Positions 48,001 through 57,000 of a stretch of 64,000 nt of DNA are shown here, piece by piece. Source of the stretch: Escherichia coli (GTDB lineage Bacteria; Pseudomonadota; Gammaproteobacteria; Enterobacterales; Enterobacteriaceae); the NCBI RefSeq assembly GCF_022846255.1, contig NZ_AP025682.1; one strand, written 5' to 3'. A program made the position numbers. Positions within the stretch are counted from its first letter, which is position 1; each line of letters begins with the position of its first letter.

Positions 48001-51000
48001 GCATGAAGCCGTCTGTGAAGTGCCCGATGCTGACGGTTCGGTGATCTTTACTTTAAAAGCAGCACGTACTGGCAACACGATTACTGTGACTGGTACGGGC
48101 GAGGCGAAGAACTGGACACTGTGCTTGCGCAATATTGTGAAAGTAAATGGTCTGCAAGGCGGTTCGCAGGCTGAAAGTGAGCAGGGACTGGTGGTGACTC
48201 CTCAAGGGAATGCGCTGACAATTACGTTGTAATCTATTGAAGAATGCCGGATACGAATGGTTTTGTGTCGTATCCGGTAAATAATCTCACATCTGGTAAT
48301 AAATATTTCTTCCATCGTATTTGCGAGCATGATCACGATTATTCATCACGAAAATGTGATCTGTGCTGAAAAATATCCCTTAACCGCCTTGCTTTGTTTT
48401 ATCACTGTCCGGATTACGGACAGATTTTAGTATTGTTGTGAAATTATTCTGCTTTATATTTACCCTCAGAGATGGCAACTGAAGCTCTTCCATATGGGGC
48501 TTCTTAATCTGTGATAAGGGTAAAAAATGCAAATGATTACCTCGCGACAAAACAGATTATTACGATTCCTTTTACCTCGAAGGGAATATACGACTATTGT
48601 TACGATTGCCGGCTATTTAAATGTTTCGGAAAAAACCATTCAACGTGATTTACGTTTACTTGAGCAATGGCTGGGACAATGGAGAATAAATGTTGAGAAG
48701 CGTGCTGGCGCGGGTGTGATGTTAAGCGCGGAGAATATTGCTGATTTGCTGCATCTTGATCATTTGTTGGTGGCAGAATGTGAAGAGATTGATGGTGTAA
48801 TGAATAATGCCAGGCGCGTTAAAATAGCGTCGCAGTTATTAAGTGAAACACCGAATGAAACGTCGATCAGTAAATTGTCAGAACGCTACTTTATCAGCGG
48901 AGCCTCTATTGTTAATGACCTGAGAGTAATTGAGTCCTGGCTTGCGCCGTTGGGGTTATCATTGATCCGCAGCCCAAGTGGTACGCATATTGAAGGTAGT
49001 GAAGGGCAAGTCCGACAGGCAATGGCATTACTGATTAACGGCATTATTAACCATAATGAGCCGCAAGGTGTCGTGTATTCACGTCTGGATCCCGGAAGTT
49101 ATAAAGCATTAGTCCATTATTTTGGAGAAGAAGAGGTGTTATTTGTCCAGTCATTGTTACTGGATATGGAAAATGAATTAAGTTGGTCTTTGGGAGAACC
49201 TTATTACGTTAACATTTTTACTCACATCCTTATTATGATGTATCGCAACACGCACGGGAATGCGTTATCAAGAGAAGAAGATCAAACCAGGCAATATGAT
49301 GAAAATATCTTTAATGTTGCCAGTCAGATGATTCATAAGATAGAACAACGAATTGCACATACATTGCCCGATGATGAAGTCTGGTTTATTTATCAATATA
49401 TCATTTCATCAGGTGTGGCGATTGATGGACAAAAAGATGTTAGCATTATTTCACATATGCAGGCCAGCAATGAAGCGCGTCTGATTACCTGGCGTTTAAT
49501 TACGGTATTCAGTGACATCGTGGACTGCGATTTTAGTGAAGACAGCGCATTATATGATGGCTTATTGGTGCATATTAAACCGCTGATTAACCGACTAAAT
49601 TATCGTATTCATATCCGTAATCCATTGTTGGAAGATATTAAAGCAGAACTAGCGGATGTCTGGCGGTTGACGCAATATGTGGTGAATCAGGTATTTAAAA
49701 CCTGGGGTGAGAATGCAGTGAGCGAGGATGAAGTAGGTTACCTGACCGTTCATTTTCAGGCTGCGATGGAGCGGCAAATTGCCCGTAAACGCGTATTACT
49801 GGTCTGTTCAACCGGAATCGGAACTTCGCATCTACTGAAAAGTCGTATTCTGCGAGCATTTCCTGAATGGACGATTGTTGATGTTATTTCAGCAGCGAAT
49901 TTATCACAGGTTTTGCCTGACAATATCGAACTGATTATTTCGACCATTAATTTGCCTACAGTCACTATGCCGGTCGCTTATGTTACCGCTTTTTTTAATG
50001 ATGCCGATATTAAGCGGGTCACTGAAATGGTGATTACGGAAAAATTACATCATGCGACATCTCGGGTCGTTGAAATTTAATGTCAGAATTTTATGAGGTA
50101 TGACGAATGGACATAACAAAAATCCTGAATACGAATCGCGTTATTTTAGATATGCAAGCGACGAATAAAGAGGAGGCGATTGAAGAATTAACTAATCTTC
50201 TCAAAAAAGATGGTGCGATCGATTGTCGGGAAACCTTTATTAAAGATGTCTGGCAGCGCGAAGCGGAAGGCTCGACTGGTTTTGAAAATCATATTGCGAT
50301 CCCGCATGGTAAATCTTCAGCTGTGATTAATACTACGCTGGCAATTGGCCGTACCCGGCAGGATATTCCCTGGGAAACGCTGGATGGCAGTAGCGTGCGC
50401 TGTATTATTTTATTTGCGGTACGTCTTGAAGATCAAAATACCACCCATATCCGTTTACTTTCCCAGGTCGCGGGCGCGCTGGCGGATGATGACATCATAG
50501 AACAATTGTTAGTTGAGACGAGTCCGCAAAAAATCATTGATCTCTTTAGTCAGTATGCACAATCCGATGTCTGCTAAATAACAGGGAGTATGTCATGAAT
50601 ATTGTCTGTGTTGCCGCCTGTACGGCGGGTATTGCTCATACCTATATTGCTCGTGAAAAGTTAATCAAAGGAGCAAAAGCTCTGGGTCATACCATTAAAG
50701 TTGAAACCCAGGGAACCATTGGTACAGAAAATGAATTACAGGCGGCAGATATCTCTGCTGCTGACGTCGTGATTCTTGCTGTAGATGTGAAAATAAAAGG
50801 AGAAGAACGCTTCACCAATAAACGTATTGTGCGAGTAAAGACAGAGATCGTCATTAAATCGCCCGTTCAATTTCTTGAAAAGGTCGAAAAATCACTGGGA
50901 AACAAATGATCCTTATACTGGAGGGATCTTAATATGAAAGACAATAAAATTCCGGTTTCACAGGAAATTAAAAAACATTTATTAACCGGCATCTCGTGGA

Positions 51001-54000: not shown

Positions 54001-57000
54001 CATGCGTTGTGGCGCTTATCGAGCAGATTAGGCGGGACGTTCAACGACCGATGCTGACAGGGATCGCCTTACCCGGCAGTATCTCGCCACTCACTGGCCT
54101 GATTAAAAACGCGAATATTCAGGTGATTAACGGTCATGCGTTACAGGCTGATTTGCAGCAATTGCTTGGGCAACCGGTGGTGATAGCCAATGATGGTAAC
54201 TGTTTCGCGCTATCAGAAGCTTGCGACGGTACCGGGCAAGATTATGACGTAGTATTTGGTATTACGCTTGGTACGGGCTGCGGCGGTGGCATTGCCATCA
54301 AGCAACGACCGTTTATAGGGGCCTGGGGAAATGCTGCCGAATGCGGTCATATCACGTTGCCAGGCTATACGGAGCAGGAAGATGGTCCATCAGTCAGTTG
54401 CTATTGCGGCAAACACAACTGCGTGGAGTCGTTTGTTTCCGGCAGCGGTTTTAGTGAACGCTATCAACAGATGACTGGTAACTTGCTCACTCCTGCGGCG
54501 ATTGTCACCCTGGCACAACGTGGTGATGCTTGTGCCATGCAGCAGGTGGCACGTTTTCGCCAACAGCTTGCCCGCACGCTGGCAACCATCGTTAACGTTG
54601 TTGACCCTGGCGTGATTGTGATCGGCGGCGGGCTTTCGAATGTGGAACTGCTTATCACCGATCTGAACGCAGAAGTCGCTCCACTGGTTTTCACCGATCA
54701 ATTCACCACTCCCATTGTAAAAGCACAGCACGGCGACAGTAGCGGAATGCGTGGCGCTGCCTGGCTTGCTATGCGCAACGGAGAAGCCAATGAAACGTTC
54801 ACAAATTAATTATGTTATTGATAAAGCACATGCCATTGCGCAGACCTTCCGCGTTTGTTTGCCAGAGTTCGCCTATTTTACGGTGGATGACTGGCTGCAG
54901 CGGGAACGGGATAACTGGCAAGAAGTGGTCGACTTACAGCTCGGTTGGGATATCACCGATTTTGGTCGTGGTGATTTCAACCAAACGGGACTAACACTGC
55001 TAACGATGCGCAACGGCGCGCTGGGGTCGGCGGCATATCCAAAACCGTATGCTGAGAAAATGTTGCAGATCCAACAAGATCAGCAGACTCCCTGGCATTT
55101 TCACACCCACAAAATGGAAGATATCCTCAATCGGGGCGGTGGAGACTTATGCATGCAGTTGGCCTGGGCCAACGAAGCCAATCTCTGTGATGATCAACGA
55201 GTCATTACCGTGAGTGTTGATGGTCAGCGGCGTACCATGAAACCTGGTGAAACGCTGGTGCTAAAGCCGGGGCAGGGCATTTGCCTGCCGCCGCGTCTGT
55301 ATCATCGCTTCTGGGCGGAAAAAGCGTTTGTTCTCGGCTGGGAAATCTCGATGGTAAATGATGACCAACACGATAATTATTTTCTTGAGCCGGGAGGACG
55401 TTTTCCGGCGATAGAAGAAGATGAACCGGTGAAATGGTTATTGTGCAGTGAGTATGGAATTTTGCGCTAATAACGGGGAACGCTAGCGCTGATATCCGCT
55501 AGCGTCCTTATTTTTACTGCACCGGCTCCGTCGACGTAACTTCACCACTGGAAACTACGCCCGCATTCATGGTTTGAGTCACTTGCTGCTTTGCGGCATT
55601 CACGGCATGCAATTGCCCGCTAACCGTAGGTTTCAGCGGGACATTGACCTGAATATCGCCACTGGCGGTAAGCTGAATATTGCCGTCGCCAGTCAACGGT
55701 AATTCAGGCCATCCCCAATGTTGCAAAATATTCACTGGCACACCGCGTCCATTCAGGCTGATATGGGTCTGACGTTGTGGCGTTTGTGAAACACTGGCGG
55801 TGGCTTCCAGAATGCCTTTTTCAGTAAATGCACTCAGTTCGCTGATATTCACCGTGCTGCTGTTGGCAGTTAGCGCCAGCGACGGACGACGGACATCAAC
55901 ACGATTAAACGTTGCGGCGGCGGCATTCAGATTCGCCGAGCCACTCCAGACGCCCCATTTATGATCGGTAACCAGCGTCAGATTGGCACCGTAACCATCG
56001 AGCGCGGTGAGCTGCCACGGGAAGTCAGGGTCGATATCAATGATCAGATTGCGGCTGGCGCTAAATCTCTTCAGTTGCAGGCTGTTTAACCAACCGGGTG
56101 TCGTTTCCATCCACAACTGTTGCCAGTTTTTTGGCAAGGTATATTCCAGTCCGGCAATTGCCGCATCATCGAGGATCAGCGTTTTCCCGTCGCGTTGCCA
56201 GTTTCCTGACGTTCTGACCATACCCCCTTCCCAGCGGCTGGTGAACTGGCGCAGTGCTACGCCCTGCGGGGAAAATTCCGCGTTTATAATCGGATCAAAT
56301 AAATGCAGCGAGCCATAAATAAACTCGCTGGCGTTCATCGACAGTTTGCCTTCCTGTGTCTGCCAGTCATCTTTACTGAAGGTCATGTTGCGCAAGCTGA
56401 GATCGAGGTCGGTCACCGCCCAGTCCGGACCTTGCAAACGAGCATCGATGACTTCCAGGCGACCAATCTGCAACGACGGGACAGAGCGTAATGGCGCAAA
56501 GAAATCGGTTAGCGATTTTTCGCTTTGTAGACGGATATCCGCCATGCGCAGGTTTTCCACTTGCCAGCTGCCGTCAGCGTTACGCTGCGCGTTTCCGGTT
56601 AATGTCCCGCGGGCGATGTCGGCACCCAGGTTAGTCAGCGTAACGCGATCGTTATCAATACTGCCTTCAATCAGTACATTGGTGGCAGGAACATCATTGA
56701 GCGAAAGCGATCCGGCACTAAACTGAATCTGCGCCTTCGTACCCAGCACTTTACCGGCTTCTGGTGACCACGGAACCACGCCGCCATTTACCCGCTGCGC
56801 GCTCAGTTTCCATTCGCTATTCGGGCTATTAAACGCCATATCACGCAGTTGCAGACGATCGGCTTTGAACGGTAGCGGCGCGGTCTGGTCGGTGAGATTC
56901 AGCGTCCCGTTTTCCAGCAGGATGGTATCGACATGGCGTGGTTCGGTCAGTTGCCGACTGCTTAGCGCAATGTCGACACTTTTTGCCACCAGGGTCGCGG

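What the first reader, a model, noticed from the sequence alone, without database searches (positions are those of the whole stretch)
48527..55470. About 7 kb accessory sugar-catabolism cluster between yicI and yicH with unknown substrate
Eight co-directional genes: a PRD-domain regulator with EIIB-like domain, PTS EIIA, EIIB and EIIC of the fructose type, two class II ketose-bisphosphate aldolases, a ROK kinase and a D-lyxose/mannose-isomerase-like cupin. From memory yicI and yicH are adjacent in K-12, so this is an insertion into a convergent intergenic region, with lower GC than the backbone. The enzyme set (PTS uptake, isomerase, kinase, aldolase) suggests catabolism of an uncommon ketose or pentose whose identity is not obvious from the sequence.
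Basis: partly seen in the sequence, partly recalled or inferred. Interest (0 to 1): 0.6.

Follow-up and report, generated by a model that had tools for sequence, protein, structure and literature searches.

The report
The known frz sugar operon of ExPEC
The eight-gene sugar-uptake and breakdown cluster between yicI and yicH is real, but it is the already published frz operon of extraintestinal pathogenic E. coli; the sugar it acts on has not been identified in any paper I could search.

Summary
Eight co-directional intact genes (48527-55470) lie in a 7,235-bp accessory segment between yicI and yicH. In K-12 C600 these two genes are 52 bp apart. The genes encode a PRD regulator, fructose-family PTS EIIA/EIIB/EIIC, two class II ketose-bisphosphate aldolases, a ROK kinase and a D-lyxose/D-mannose-type cupin isomerase.

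It is not new. It is the frz operon of ExPEC strain BEN2908 (Rouquet et al. 2009). A 2026 paper places frz (7,227 bp) between yicH and yicI. The published frz PCR primers match the window exactly and give the published 843-bp amplicon. The published 'frz orf4 = PTS IIC' matches the fourth gene here. The cluster is present in 1,601 of 5,426 complete E. coli genomes.

- Only the first three genes are low in GC (0.41). The rest of the cluster (0.53) matches the backbone.
- 'Insertion' is doubtful. The same cassette sits directly after yicJ-yicI in Citrobacter and Klebsiella, and there are no flanking repeats and no integrase. An old locus lost in K-12-type lineages is at least as likely.

No paper I could search names the substrate. 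Verdict: already known, low interest.

The parts
45914..48232 (+). yicI (GH31 alpha-xylosidase), left flanking core gene
   Evidence: RefSeq annotation of near-identical strains. 97.4% nucleotide identity to K-12 C600 yicI.
48246..48278 (+). yicI terminator-like hairpin (GCCGGATACG...CGTATCCGG), shared with K-12. The accessory segment begins just after it, at about 48279.
   Evidence: Junction sequences of the window, K-12 C600 and strain 2e compared.
48279..48526 (+). 5' non-coding leader of the cluster. The frz promoter is presumed to lie here. It also holds a hairpin plus T-run at 48405-48423.
   Evidence: Sequence and terminator-like site. The consensus scan found no sigma-70-like site in this stretch, so the promoter position is inferred only.
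48527..50080 (+). frz gene 1: PTS-controlled transcriptional activator (HTH_11/Mga x2, PRD x2, EIIB-like domain). It has no CAT RNA-binding domain and no EIIA domain.
   Evidence: Pfam and NCBIfam. His233, His409 and Cys427 (VLLVCSTGIGTS) are invariant in 7 genera. The published frz PCR primers match at 48932-48951 (+) and 49755-49774 (-), giving an 843-bp amplicon.
50107..50577 (+). frz gene 2: PTS EIIA, fructose/mannitol type, with active-site His67 in HIAIPHGK
   Evidence: TIGR00848, 128.7 bits, above cut-off. Motif invariant in 7 genera.
50595..50909 (+). frz gene 3: PTS EIIB, fructose type, with active-site Cys9 in AACTAGIAHT
   Evidence: TIGR00829, 100 bits, above cut-off. Motif invariant.
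50934..52052 (+). frz gene 4 (published 'frz orf4'): PTS EIIC, fructose family. In this strain the usual TAA stop at 52023-52025 reads CAA, which adds 9 residues and creates a 16-nt overlap with the next gene.
   Evidence: TIGR01427, 311.5 bits. Alignment with two other strains. 'frz orf4 = PTS fructose transporter subunit IIC' in PMC8896058.
52037..52888 (+). frz gene 5: class II (Zn) ketose-bisphosphate aldolase paralogue 1. Its C-terminal third is divergent and it is below every NCBIfam equivalog cut-off.
   Evidence: NCBIfam and PDB homologues AgaY/KbaY/FBA/YdjI. LDHG, GELG, TAHG, LHGG and KIN motifs are invariant. 33% identical to paralogue 2.
52969..53829 (+). frz gene 6: class II ketose-bisphosphate aldolase paralogue 2 (NCBIfam subfamily NF006042)
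   Evidence: NF006042, 522 bits, above the 405 cut-off. PDB homologues. Motifs invariant.
53877..54809 (+). frz gene 7: ROK-family sugar kinase without an HTH domain. The closest family is the Mak manno(fructo)kinase.
   Evidence: NF007108, 316.9 bits, below the 443 cut-off. DIGGT and CxCGxxxC motifs present. PDB NagK-like. Absent or internally deleted in two other genera.
54790..55470 (+). frz gene 8: cupin of the D-lyxose/D-mannose isomerase family
   Evidence: PF07385. NF051472, 271.7 bits, below the 350 cut-off. PDB 3KMH/3MPB D-lyxose isomerase, E=1.4e-64, with the HxH...E...H metal motif conserved.
55480..55505 (.). GC-rich hairpin between the convergent cupin gene and yicH. It is followed by a T-run and is the likely frz terminator. 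The right border of the accessory segment is at 55513.
   Evidence: Terminator scan and junction comparison.
55514..57223 (-). yicH (AsmA family), right flanking core gene
   Evidence: RefSeq annotation. 97.4% nucleotide identity to K-12 C600.

Best explanation
This is the frz operon, an accessory carbohydrate operon of extraintestinal pathogenic E. coli first described in avian strain BEN2908.

Shown here:
- Its identity, position and gene content.
- The intactness of all eight genes.
- Conservation of the catalytic and phosphorylation motifs across genera.

Inferred mechanism:
- Gene 1 encodes a DNA-binding, Mga/AtxA-like PRD activator. PTS phosphorylation of its PRD histidines and of the Cys in its EIIB-like domain would control its activity, so the operon is switched on when its sugar is being transported and preferred sugars are absent.
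- The fructose-family EIIA, EIIB and EIIC take up and phosphorylate a sugar that is still unidentified. The most likely candidate is a ketohexose or a sugar with manno/lyxo configuration.
- The two zinc-dependent class II aldolase paralogues cleave the resulting ketose (bis)phosphate(s) to dihydroxyacetone phosphate plus an aldehyde (phosphate).
- The cupin isomerase (aldose to ketose; D-lyxose/D-mannose type) and the Mak-like ROK kinase handle the unphosphorylated forms and feed them into the same route.

From the literature, not tested here: the operon improves fitness under oxygen restriction, in late stationary phase, in serum and in the gut, and it favours the ON state of the type 1 fimbriae switch.
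For: Identity:
- PMC12928451 lists the frz operon as 7,227 bp in genomic region GR27 'yicH..yicI', present in the ExPEC/AIEC strains that study compared and not in K-12 MG1655. The accessory segment here is 7,235 bp at the same site.
- The published frz primers match exactly, 843 bp apart, as published.
- 'frz orf4' is a PTS IIC, and the fourth gene here is the IIC.
- Reviews describe frz as a single operon affecting fitness and the fim switch.

Distribution: full-length copy in 1,601 of 5,426 complete E. coli genomes. C600, O157:H7 and O111 strains have only the yicI tail.

Function calls: NCBIfam, Pfam and PDB matches for all eight proteins.

Operon structure: gaps of -20 to 80 nt between genes, each start has a Shine-Dalgarno-like sequence, and there is a terminal hairpin.

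Selection: active-site His/Cys residues, Zn ligands and cupin metal ligands are invariant in seven genera. The whole cassette is conserved as a unit in Citrobacter, Klebsiella, Raoultella and Salmonella, and conserved except for a missing or internally deleted ROK gene in a second Klebsiella and in Izhakiella.
Against: - No substrate is named in any paper I could search. The original papers could not be read.
- The enzyme set does not form a textbook PTS route. There is no PfkB-type 1-phosphofructokinase to make a 1,6-bisphosphate.
- The characterised relatives of the ROK kinase and of the cupin act on unphosphorylated sugars, which a PTS does not deliver.
- The ROK gene is missing in one Klebsiella and internally deleted in Izhakiella while the rest of the cassette is intact.
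- Aldolase 1, the ROK kinase and the cupin all score below their nearest NCBIfam equivalog cut-offs, so their exact specificities are open.
Confidence: 0.85

Rival explanations
1. A previously undescribed accessory sugar cluster.
For: RefSeq gives the genes only generic product names and no gene symbols.
Against: The site, size, gene order and PCR primers all match the published frz operon.
Confidence: 0.02
2. An orthologue of a K-12 fructose-like or galactitol system (frv, frw, fru, mng, gat or aga) placed elsewhere in the genome.
For: The PTS parts belong to the same fructose family, and the aldolases resemble GatY/KbaY.
Against: All equivalog models score far below their cut-offs:
- FruA 296.9 vs 793
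- FrwC-type IIC 262.6 vs 426
- FrvB-type IIBC 161.7 vs 806
- MngA 249.5 vs 763
- GatY 187/246 vs 383
- KbaY 150/182 vs 542
The gene set (two GatY-like aldolases + ROK + cupin + Mga/PRD regulator) matches none of those operons.
Confidence: 0.02
3. Frz is mainly a sensory and regulatory device. A PTS branch and its Mga/AtxA-like PRD regulator would report carbohydrate or energy status and adjust fimbrial phase variation and stress fitness. The enzymes would shape the signal rather than feed growth.
For: The regulator has the HTH-Mga-PRD-PRD-EIIB architecture of the PRD-containing virulence regulators of Gram-positive bacteria. The reported phenotypes are fitness under stress and the orientation of the fim switch, not growth on a named sugar. 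No substrate has emerged in the searchable literature since 2009.
Against: The complete catalytic cassette, with invariant active sites, is conserved as a unit across Enterobacteriaceae genera that are not ExPEC. That is what one expects of a working catabolic pathway. The two readings are not exclusive.
Confidence: 0.25
4. Origin: a recent horizontal insertion into the yicI-yicH spacer of pathogenic lineages, rather than an old locus lost from K-12-type lineages.
For: - The cluster is absent from about 70% of complete E. coli genomes.
- The regulator, EIIA and EIIB part is low in GC.
- The cassette sits at other sites in Raoultella and Izhakiella, and beside an integrase fragment on the other side of yicJI in one Salmonella. 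It has therefore moved at least occasionally.
Against: - The cassette occupies the same position, directly after yicJ-yicI, in Citrobacter, Klebsiella sp. and K. aerogenes.
- E. coli vs Citrobacter protein identity is 76-96% for frz and 82-96% for the flanking core genes.
- Full-length E. coli copies differ from the window by up to 1.9% (98.1% identity), close to the 2.6% by which the window's yicI and yicH differ from K-12.
- The borders have no direct or inverted repeats, no integrase and no tRNA.
Confidence: 0.25

Closest known systems
frz operon of ExPEC/APEC strain BEN2908 (Rouquet et al. 2009, J Bacteriol 191:4427; cited in PMC12928451, PMC8777976, PMC6238794)
   Same: Same chromosomal site (yicH..yicI), similar size (7,227 bp published, 7,235 bp here), same gene order (orf4 = PTS IIC), and exact primer matches with the 843-bp amplicon.
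   Different: Only strain-level differences. This strain has a T-to-C change that removes the EIIC stop codon and adds 9 residues.
K-12 fructose-family PTS paralogues (fruBKA, frvABXR, frwCBD, mngA)
   Same: EIIA, EIIB and EIIC belong to the same fructose family, with scores above the TIGR domain cut-offs.
   Different: Not orthologous, since all equivalog cut-offs are missed. The partner enzymes and the regulator type also differ.
Galactitol / N-acetylgalactosamine / D-tagatose routes ending in GatY/KbaY class II tagatose-1,6-bisphosphate aldolase
   Same: PTS uptake followed by a class II ketose-bisphosphate aldolase of the GatY/KbaY size class. PDB AgaY and KbaY are among the best structural relatives.
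   Different: There is no GatZ/KbaZ partner and no PfkB kinase. Frz instead has two GatY-like paralogues that are only 33% identical to each other, plus a ROK kinase and a cupin isomerase.
D-lyxose/D-mannose isomerase solved as PDB 3KMH/3MPB (from memory: E. coli O157:H7 Z5688)
   Same: Same cupin family, E=1.4e-64, about 50% identity, metal-binding HxH...E...H motif conserved.
   Different: A paralogue, not an orthologue. The Gram-negative equivalog model scores 271.7 against a cut-off of 350. One other member of this cupin family at about 49% identity (P0088) sits beside an ABC sugar transporter rather than a PTS; whether it is Z5688 itself was not checked.
PRD-containing regulators: Mga/AtxA-type virulence regulators and MtlR/LicR/ManR-type PTS activators
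   Same: HTH + Mga + PRD1 + PRD2 + EIIB-like domain order, with conserved PRD histidines and EIIB-like cysteine.
   Different: It lacks the C-terminal EIIA-like domain of MtlR/LicR/ManR. It scores below the AcpB/EbpR/MafR subfamily cut-off (83 vs 130). It is not a BglG/LicT antiterminator despite the RefSeq product name, because no CAT domain is found.
YdjI aldolase of E. coli K-12 (PDB 6OFU)
   Same: Same class II aldolase fold family. From memory, it shows that members of this family can cleave ketose 1-phosphates of unusual, longer sugars.
   Different: Only a distant paralogue. Nothing here shows that the frz aldolases share that specificity.

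Membership tests
frz operon (ExPEC) | Located between yicI and yicH, about 7.2 kb, absent from K-12 | tested here: met
   Accessory segment 48279-55513 is 7,235 bp. The published size is 7,227 bp in region 'yicH..yicI'. In K-12 C600 yicI and yicH are 52 bp apart.
frz operon (ExPEC) | Published frz PCR primers anneal and give an 843-bp product | tested here: met
   Exact matches at 48932-48951 (+) and 49755-49774 (-), giving 843 bp. None expected by chance.
frz operon (ExPEC) | Gene content: PTS activator, EIIA, EIIB, EIIC (orf4), two class II aldolases, ROK kinase, cupin | tested here: met
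   orf4 = IIC from PMC8896058. The full published gene list is recalled from the abstract of Rouquet 2009, which is not held here.
Fructose-family PTS (EIIA/EIIB/EIIC) | Family domain models above the curated cut-off | tested here: met
   TIGR00848 128.7 vs 103.5; TIGR00829 100 vs 76.85; TIGR01427 311.5 vs 157.55.
Fructose-family PTS (EIIA/EIIB/EIIC) | Phosphorylatable His in EIIA and Cys in EIIB | tested here: met
   His67 (HIAIPHGK) and Cys9 (AACTAGIAHT) are invariant in 7 genera. The site assignment is by motif, from general knowledge.
Fructose-family PTS (EIIA/EIIB/EIIC) | Transport and phosphorylation of a defined sugar | not testable with these tools
   No substrate found in the searchable literature.
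K-12 fru/frv/frw/mng orthologues | Equivalog model score above cut-off | tested here: not met
   All scores are far below their cut-offs.
BglG/LicT-type antiterminator (RefSeq product name) | N-terminal CAT RNA-binding domain | tested here: not met
   Pfam finds HTH_11/Mga DNA-binding domains at the N-terminus and no CAT domain. GlcT and LicT models match only the PRD part and score far below their cut-offs.
Mga/AtxA-like PRD-containing regulators | Domain order HTH, Mga-HTH, PRD, PRD, EIIB-like | tested here: met
   Pfam: HTH_11 7-63, Mga 100-169, PRD 209-294, PRD 324-413, PTS_IIB 422-498.
Mga/AtxA-like PRD-containing regulators | NCBIfam AcpB/EbpR/MafR subfamily score above cut-off | tested here: not met
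   83 bits against a cut-off of 130.
MtlR/LicR/ManR-type PTS activators | C-terminal EIIA-like domain after the EIIB-like domain | tested here: not met
   The protein ends at residue 517, shortly after the EIIB-like domain. Pfam finds no EIIA domain.
Class II (metal-dependent) ketose-bisphosphate aldolases | PF01116 fold with the Asp-His, TAHG and LHGG metal/catalytic motifs | tested here: met
   Both paralogues carry the motifs, invariant in 7 genera. Family matches. Aldolase 2 is above the NF006042 cut-off (522 vs 405).
Class II (metal-dependent) ketose-bisphosphate aldolases | Assignment to the fructose-1,6-bisphosphate or tagatose-1,6-bisphosphate equivalogs | tested here: not met
   All FBA, GatY and KbaY equivalog scores are below cut-off for both paralogues.
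ROK sugar kinases | ROK domain with the ATP motif DxGxT and the Zn motif CxCGxxxC, and no HTH domain | tested here: met
   DIGGT at residue 7 and CYCGKHNC at residue 175. PF00480. NagK-like in the PDB.
Mak manno(fructo)kinase equivalog | NF007108 score above cut-off | tested here: not met
   316.9 against 443.
D-lyxose/D-mannose isomerase (cupin) | PF07385 domain with conserved metal ligands | tested here: met
   PF07385. Alignment to 3KMH, E=1.4e-64, with WHFH...ED...LYH conserved.
D-lyxose/D-mannose isomerase (cupin) | NCBIfam equivalog NF051472 above cut-off; demonstrated activity | tested here: not met
   271.7 against 350. Enzyme activity cannot be tested with these tools.

The most novel reading that the evidence does not exclude
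The searchable literature names no substrate for frz. The conserved core is the PTS, the two aldolases and the cupin; the ROK kinase is dispensable in two genera. The cassette lies next to the yicJI alpha-xyloside genes in five of the seven genomes examined. These facts leave room for a non-textbook route. In that route the PTS product would be a ketose 1-phosphate of a rare or longer-chain sugar. The aldolases would split it into DHAP and a free aldose of lyxo/manno configuration. The cupin and the kinase would then salvage that aldose. This would define a new catabolic pathway that is enriched in ExPEC.
Probability: 0.1. Interest if true: 0.5.

Novelty: already known. Interest (0 to 1): 0.15.

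Why it matters
frz is used as an APEC/ExPEC marker and has been linked to gut, serum and low-oxygen fitness and to type 1 fimbriae expression, so it matters for pathogen ecology. That link is already published. What remains open is the sugar it handles. Knowing the sugar would explain why a metabolic operon tracks with virulence. The comparative points made here are modest additions that could guide that search: the conserved core with a dispensable ROK kinase, the same site in Citrobacter and Klebsiella, the two-part GC content, and the misleading 'antiterminator' annotation.

Tried and rejected
- Original papers. I tried Rouquet 2009 and Reperant 2011 by DOI, PMC id and PubMed id. Neither is held. 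Details of their gene list and phenotypes therefore rest on citing papers and on my memory of the abstract.
- Substrate in the literature. Six full-text searches for a frz substrate or for characterised homologous clusters found nothing relevant. Mentions of yicI in two other papers were unrelated.
- RNA elements. An Rfam scan of the whole window found no RNA family in or next to the cluster.
- Promoter scan. It found fewer sites than the shuffled controls (6 against 10.4) and none in the leader, so no promoter is claimed.
- Mobile-element signatures. The search for flanking direct or inverted repeats gave only chance-level short matches, none at the borders.
- Cupin context. The neighbourhoods of more distant cupin homologues (ABC-transporter context, Clostridiales context) gave no clue to the substrate.
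- Species-wide scan. I considered a genome-contig scan and did not run it, because seven genus-level contexts from cheaper look-ups were enough and the verdict would not change.
- Structure prediction. Not run, for the same reason.

Full report
**Observation.**

The region 48527-55470 holds eight co-directional ORFs with no competing long ORFs. NCBIfam and Pfam assign them as follows:
- a 517-aa regulator with HTH_11/Mga, two PRD domains and an EIIB-like domain;
- fructose-family EIIA, EIIB and EIIC, each above its TIGR cut-off;
- two class II ketose-bisphosphate aldolase paralogues, 33% identical to each other;
- a ROK kinase closest to the Mak manno(fructo)kinase;
- a cupin of the D-lyxose/D-mannose isomerase family.

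The cupin aligns with the solved D-lyxose isomerase 3KMH/3MPB at E=1.4e-64, and the metal ligands are conserved. The flanking genes are yicI and yicH. In K-12 C600 these two are convergent and 52 bp apart.

The probable starts of the last two genes are the ATGs at 53877 and 54790, not the upstream GTGs.

**What it is.**

It is the frz operon of extraintestinal pathogenic E. coli. Several independent lines agree:
1. The 2026 genome paper on strain BEN2908 lists 'GR 27, yicH..yicI' as containing the 7,227-bp frz operon. It reports the region present in the ExPEC and AIEC strains it compared and not in K-12 MG1655, and it cites Rouquet et al. 2009. The accessory segment here is 7,235 bp at the same site.
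2. The frz PCR primers printed in PMC6238794 match the window exactly at 48932-48951 (+) and 49755-49774 (-). That gives the published 843-bp amplicon, with zero matches expected by chance.
3. PMC8896058 lists the marker 'frz orf4' as a PTS fructose transporter subunit IIC, and the fourth gene here is the EIIC.
4. Citing papers describe frz as a single carbohydrate operon. They report that it promotes fitness in late stationary phase, under oxygen restriction, in serum and in the gut, and that it favours the ON orientation of the type 1 fimbriae switch.

The original paper and the follow-up paper on yicJI are not held.

**Distribution.**

A full-length copy (at least 80% of the query; listed copies are 98.1-99.9% identical) is present in 1,601 of 5,426 complete E. 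coli genomes. C600, O157:H7 and O111 strains match only the 56-bp yicI tail.

**Anatomy and borders.**

The yicI terminator hairpin (48246-48278) is shared with K-12. The sequences diverge just after it and rejoin at the yicH stop codon. The borders carry no direct or inverted repeats, no integrase and no tRNA.

Gene spacing of -20 to 80 nt, a Shine-Dalgarno-like sequence before each start, and a terminal GC-rich hairpin with a T-run (55480-55505) all fit a single transcription unit. No Rfam family lies in the cluster. The consensus promoter scan is uninformative.

GC content falls into two parts. It is 0.411 for 48279-50933 (leader, regulator, EIIA, EIIB) and 0.529 for the rest, against 0.514 for the window. 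The EIIB gene is low in GC in Citrobacter and Raoultella too.

**Other genera, and the 'insertion' claim.**

Orthologues of the cupin at about 70-82% identity occur in Citrobacter, Raoultella, Salmonella, Klebsiella, Kluyvera, Phytobacter, Izhakiella, Superficieibacter and Buttiauxella. The contexts I examined were these:
- Citrobacter: the same eight genes lie between yicI and yicH.
- Klebsiella sp. and K. aerogenes: the cassette directly follows yicJ-yicI. An RpiR/GH4/EIICB module lies between it and yicH.
- One Salmonella enterica: the cassette lies upstream of yicJ, next to an integrase fragment.
- Raoultella and Izhakiella: it lies elsewhere in the genome.

E. coli vs Citrobacter protein identity is 76-96% for the frz genes and 82-96% for the flanking core genes. 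Together with the clean borders and up to 1.9% divergence among E. coli copies, this makes an old locus that was lost in K-12-type lineages at least as likely as a recent insertion. I did not map presence or absence onto phylogroups.

**Function of the parts.**

Phosphorylation and catalytic motifs are invariant across the seven genera:
- regulator: His233, His409 and the Cys427 P-loop;
- EIIA His67 and EIIB Cys9;
- the aldolase LDHG, TAHG and LHGG motifs in both paralogues;
- the cupin HxH...E...H motif.

The regulator has DNA-binding HTH/Mga domains and no CAT domain. The RefSeq name 'BglG family transcription antiterminator' is therefore misleading. Its architecture is that of Mga/AtxA-type PRD regulators, and it lacks the EIIA-like tail of MtlR/LicR/ManR.

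None of the proteins reaches an equivalog cut-off for FruA, Frv, Frw, MngA, FBA, GatY, KbaY, Mak or the Gram-negative lyxose/mannose isomerase. Only aldolase 2 passes a cut-off, for a subfamily (NF006042) whose name is uninformative. The cluster is therefore not an frv, frw or gat equivalent.

**Most likely mechanism (inferred).**

A PRD activator controlled by the PTS switches on a fructose-family PTS that imports and phosphorylates an unidentified sugar. The two aldolases cleave the resulting ketose (bis)phosphate. The cupin (aldose to ketose) and the ROK kinase bring the unphosphorylated forms into the same route.

This model has weak points:
- There is no PfkB-type kinase to make a 1,6-bisphosphate.
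- The characterised relatives of the ROK kinase and the cupin use free sugars.
- The ROK gene is absent in Klebsiella sp. and internally deleted in Izhakiella, so the conserved core is PTS + two aldolases + cupin.

A related non-PTS cluster in another Salmonella contains an MFS transporter, an aldose epimerase, a cupin (62% identical), a class II aldolase, a PfkB kinase, a Zn-dependent alcohol dehydrogenase and a DeoR regulator, all next to an integrase. Its layout reads as isomerase, then kinase, then aldolase, then aldehyde reductase. The family also contains YdjI-type aldolases. These facts leave open a route through a ketose 1-phosphate that yields a free aldose, but nothing here demonstrates it. 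A mainly sensory role is a live, non-exclusive rival.

**Verdict.**

The finding is already known. Interest is low, apart from the unresolved substrate.

Noticed in passing
window 52023-52025: In this strain the EIIC stop codon TAA reads CAA. The protein is extended by 9 residues (372 vs 363 aa) and overlaps the start of aldolase 1 by 16 nt. Two other frz-positive strains have the TAA stop.
   Followed up: partly
window 48279-50933 vs 50934-55513: GC content of the operon is in two parts: 0.41 for the leader, regulator, EIIA and EIIB, and 0.53 for EIIC and the enzymes. The EIIB gene is low in GC in Citrobacter and Raoultella as well. This suggests a composite origin of the regulatory/EIIAB module and the EIIC/enzyme module.
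   Followed up: partly
L014 9936-10001; L015 9473-10001: The ROK kinase gene is cleanly absent from the cassette in one Klebsiella sp. It carries an internal deletion (residues ~128-269) in Izhakiella. The other seven genes are intact in both.
   Followed up: yes
L010 3726-15124: In one Salmonella enterica the same eight-gene cassette lies on the other side of yicJ-yicI, next to a 55-aa integrase fragment and a transposase fragment. It is therefore still linked to yicJI but at a different junction.
   Followed up: partly
L014 11032-14851; L016 10747-14910: In Klebsiella the yicI-yicH slot holds a second accessory module after the frz-like cassette: an RpiR/SIS regulator, a GH4 phospho-glycosidase and a PTS EIICB. 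The slot seems to collect sugar modules.
   Followed up: no
L011 7598-14541: A Salmonella island next to an integrase carries a non-PTS relative of the pathway: MFS transporter, aldose 1-epimerase, cupin (62% identical), class II aldolase, PfkB kinase, Zn-dependent alcohol dehydrogenase and DeoR regulator.
   Followed up: no
window 48527-50080: RefSeq names the regulator 'BglG family transcription antiterminator'. It has HTH/Mga DNA-binding domains and no CAT RNA-binding domain, so 'antiterminator' is probably a misannotation.
   Followed up: yes
window 48405-48423: A 7-bp-stem hairpin followed by ATTTTAGTAT lies in the untranslated leader about 100 nt upstream of the regulator gene. Its role (second yicI terminator, attenuator, or chance) is unknown.
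   Followed up: no
window 41900-44229: Next to tRNA-Sec (44135-44229, -) there is an intact RhuM-family gene (ORF ending at 43045; about 345 aa in RefSeq strains). K-12 C600 has only a rhuM pseudogene fragment there. The adjacent 42.0-43.0 kb stretch has very low GC (0.34-0.37) and holds a small hypothetical ORF. There is no large selC island in this strain.
   Followed up: partly
window 37416-38082: An overlapping pair of small genes on the minus strand, lying after yicN and before nepI, is annotated in a near-identical strain as an HTH antitoxin plus a RelE/ParE-family toxin.
   Followed up: no
window 542-622, 6099-6141, 16273-16345: Ordinary Rfam matches: AsdA antisense RNA within dnaA, ES036 sRNA after gyrB, and the ROSE_2 thermosensor before ibpA. 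The window starts at dnaA.
   Followed up: no
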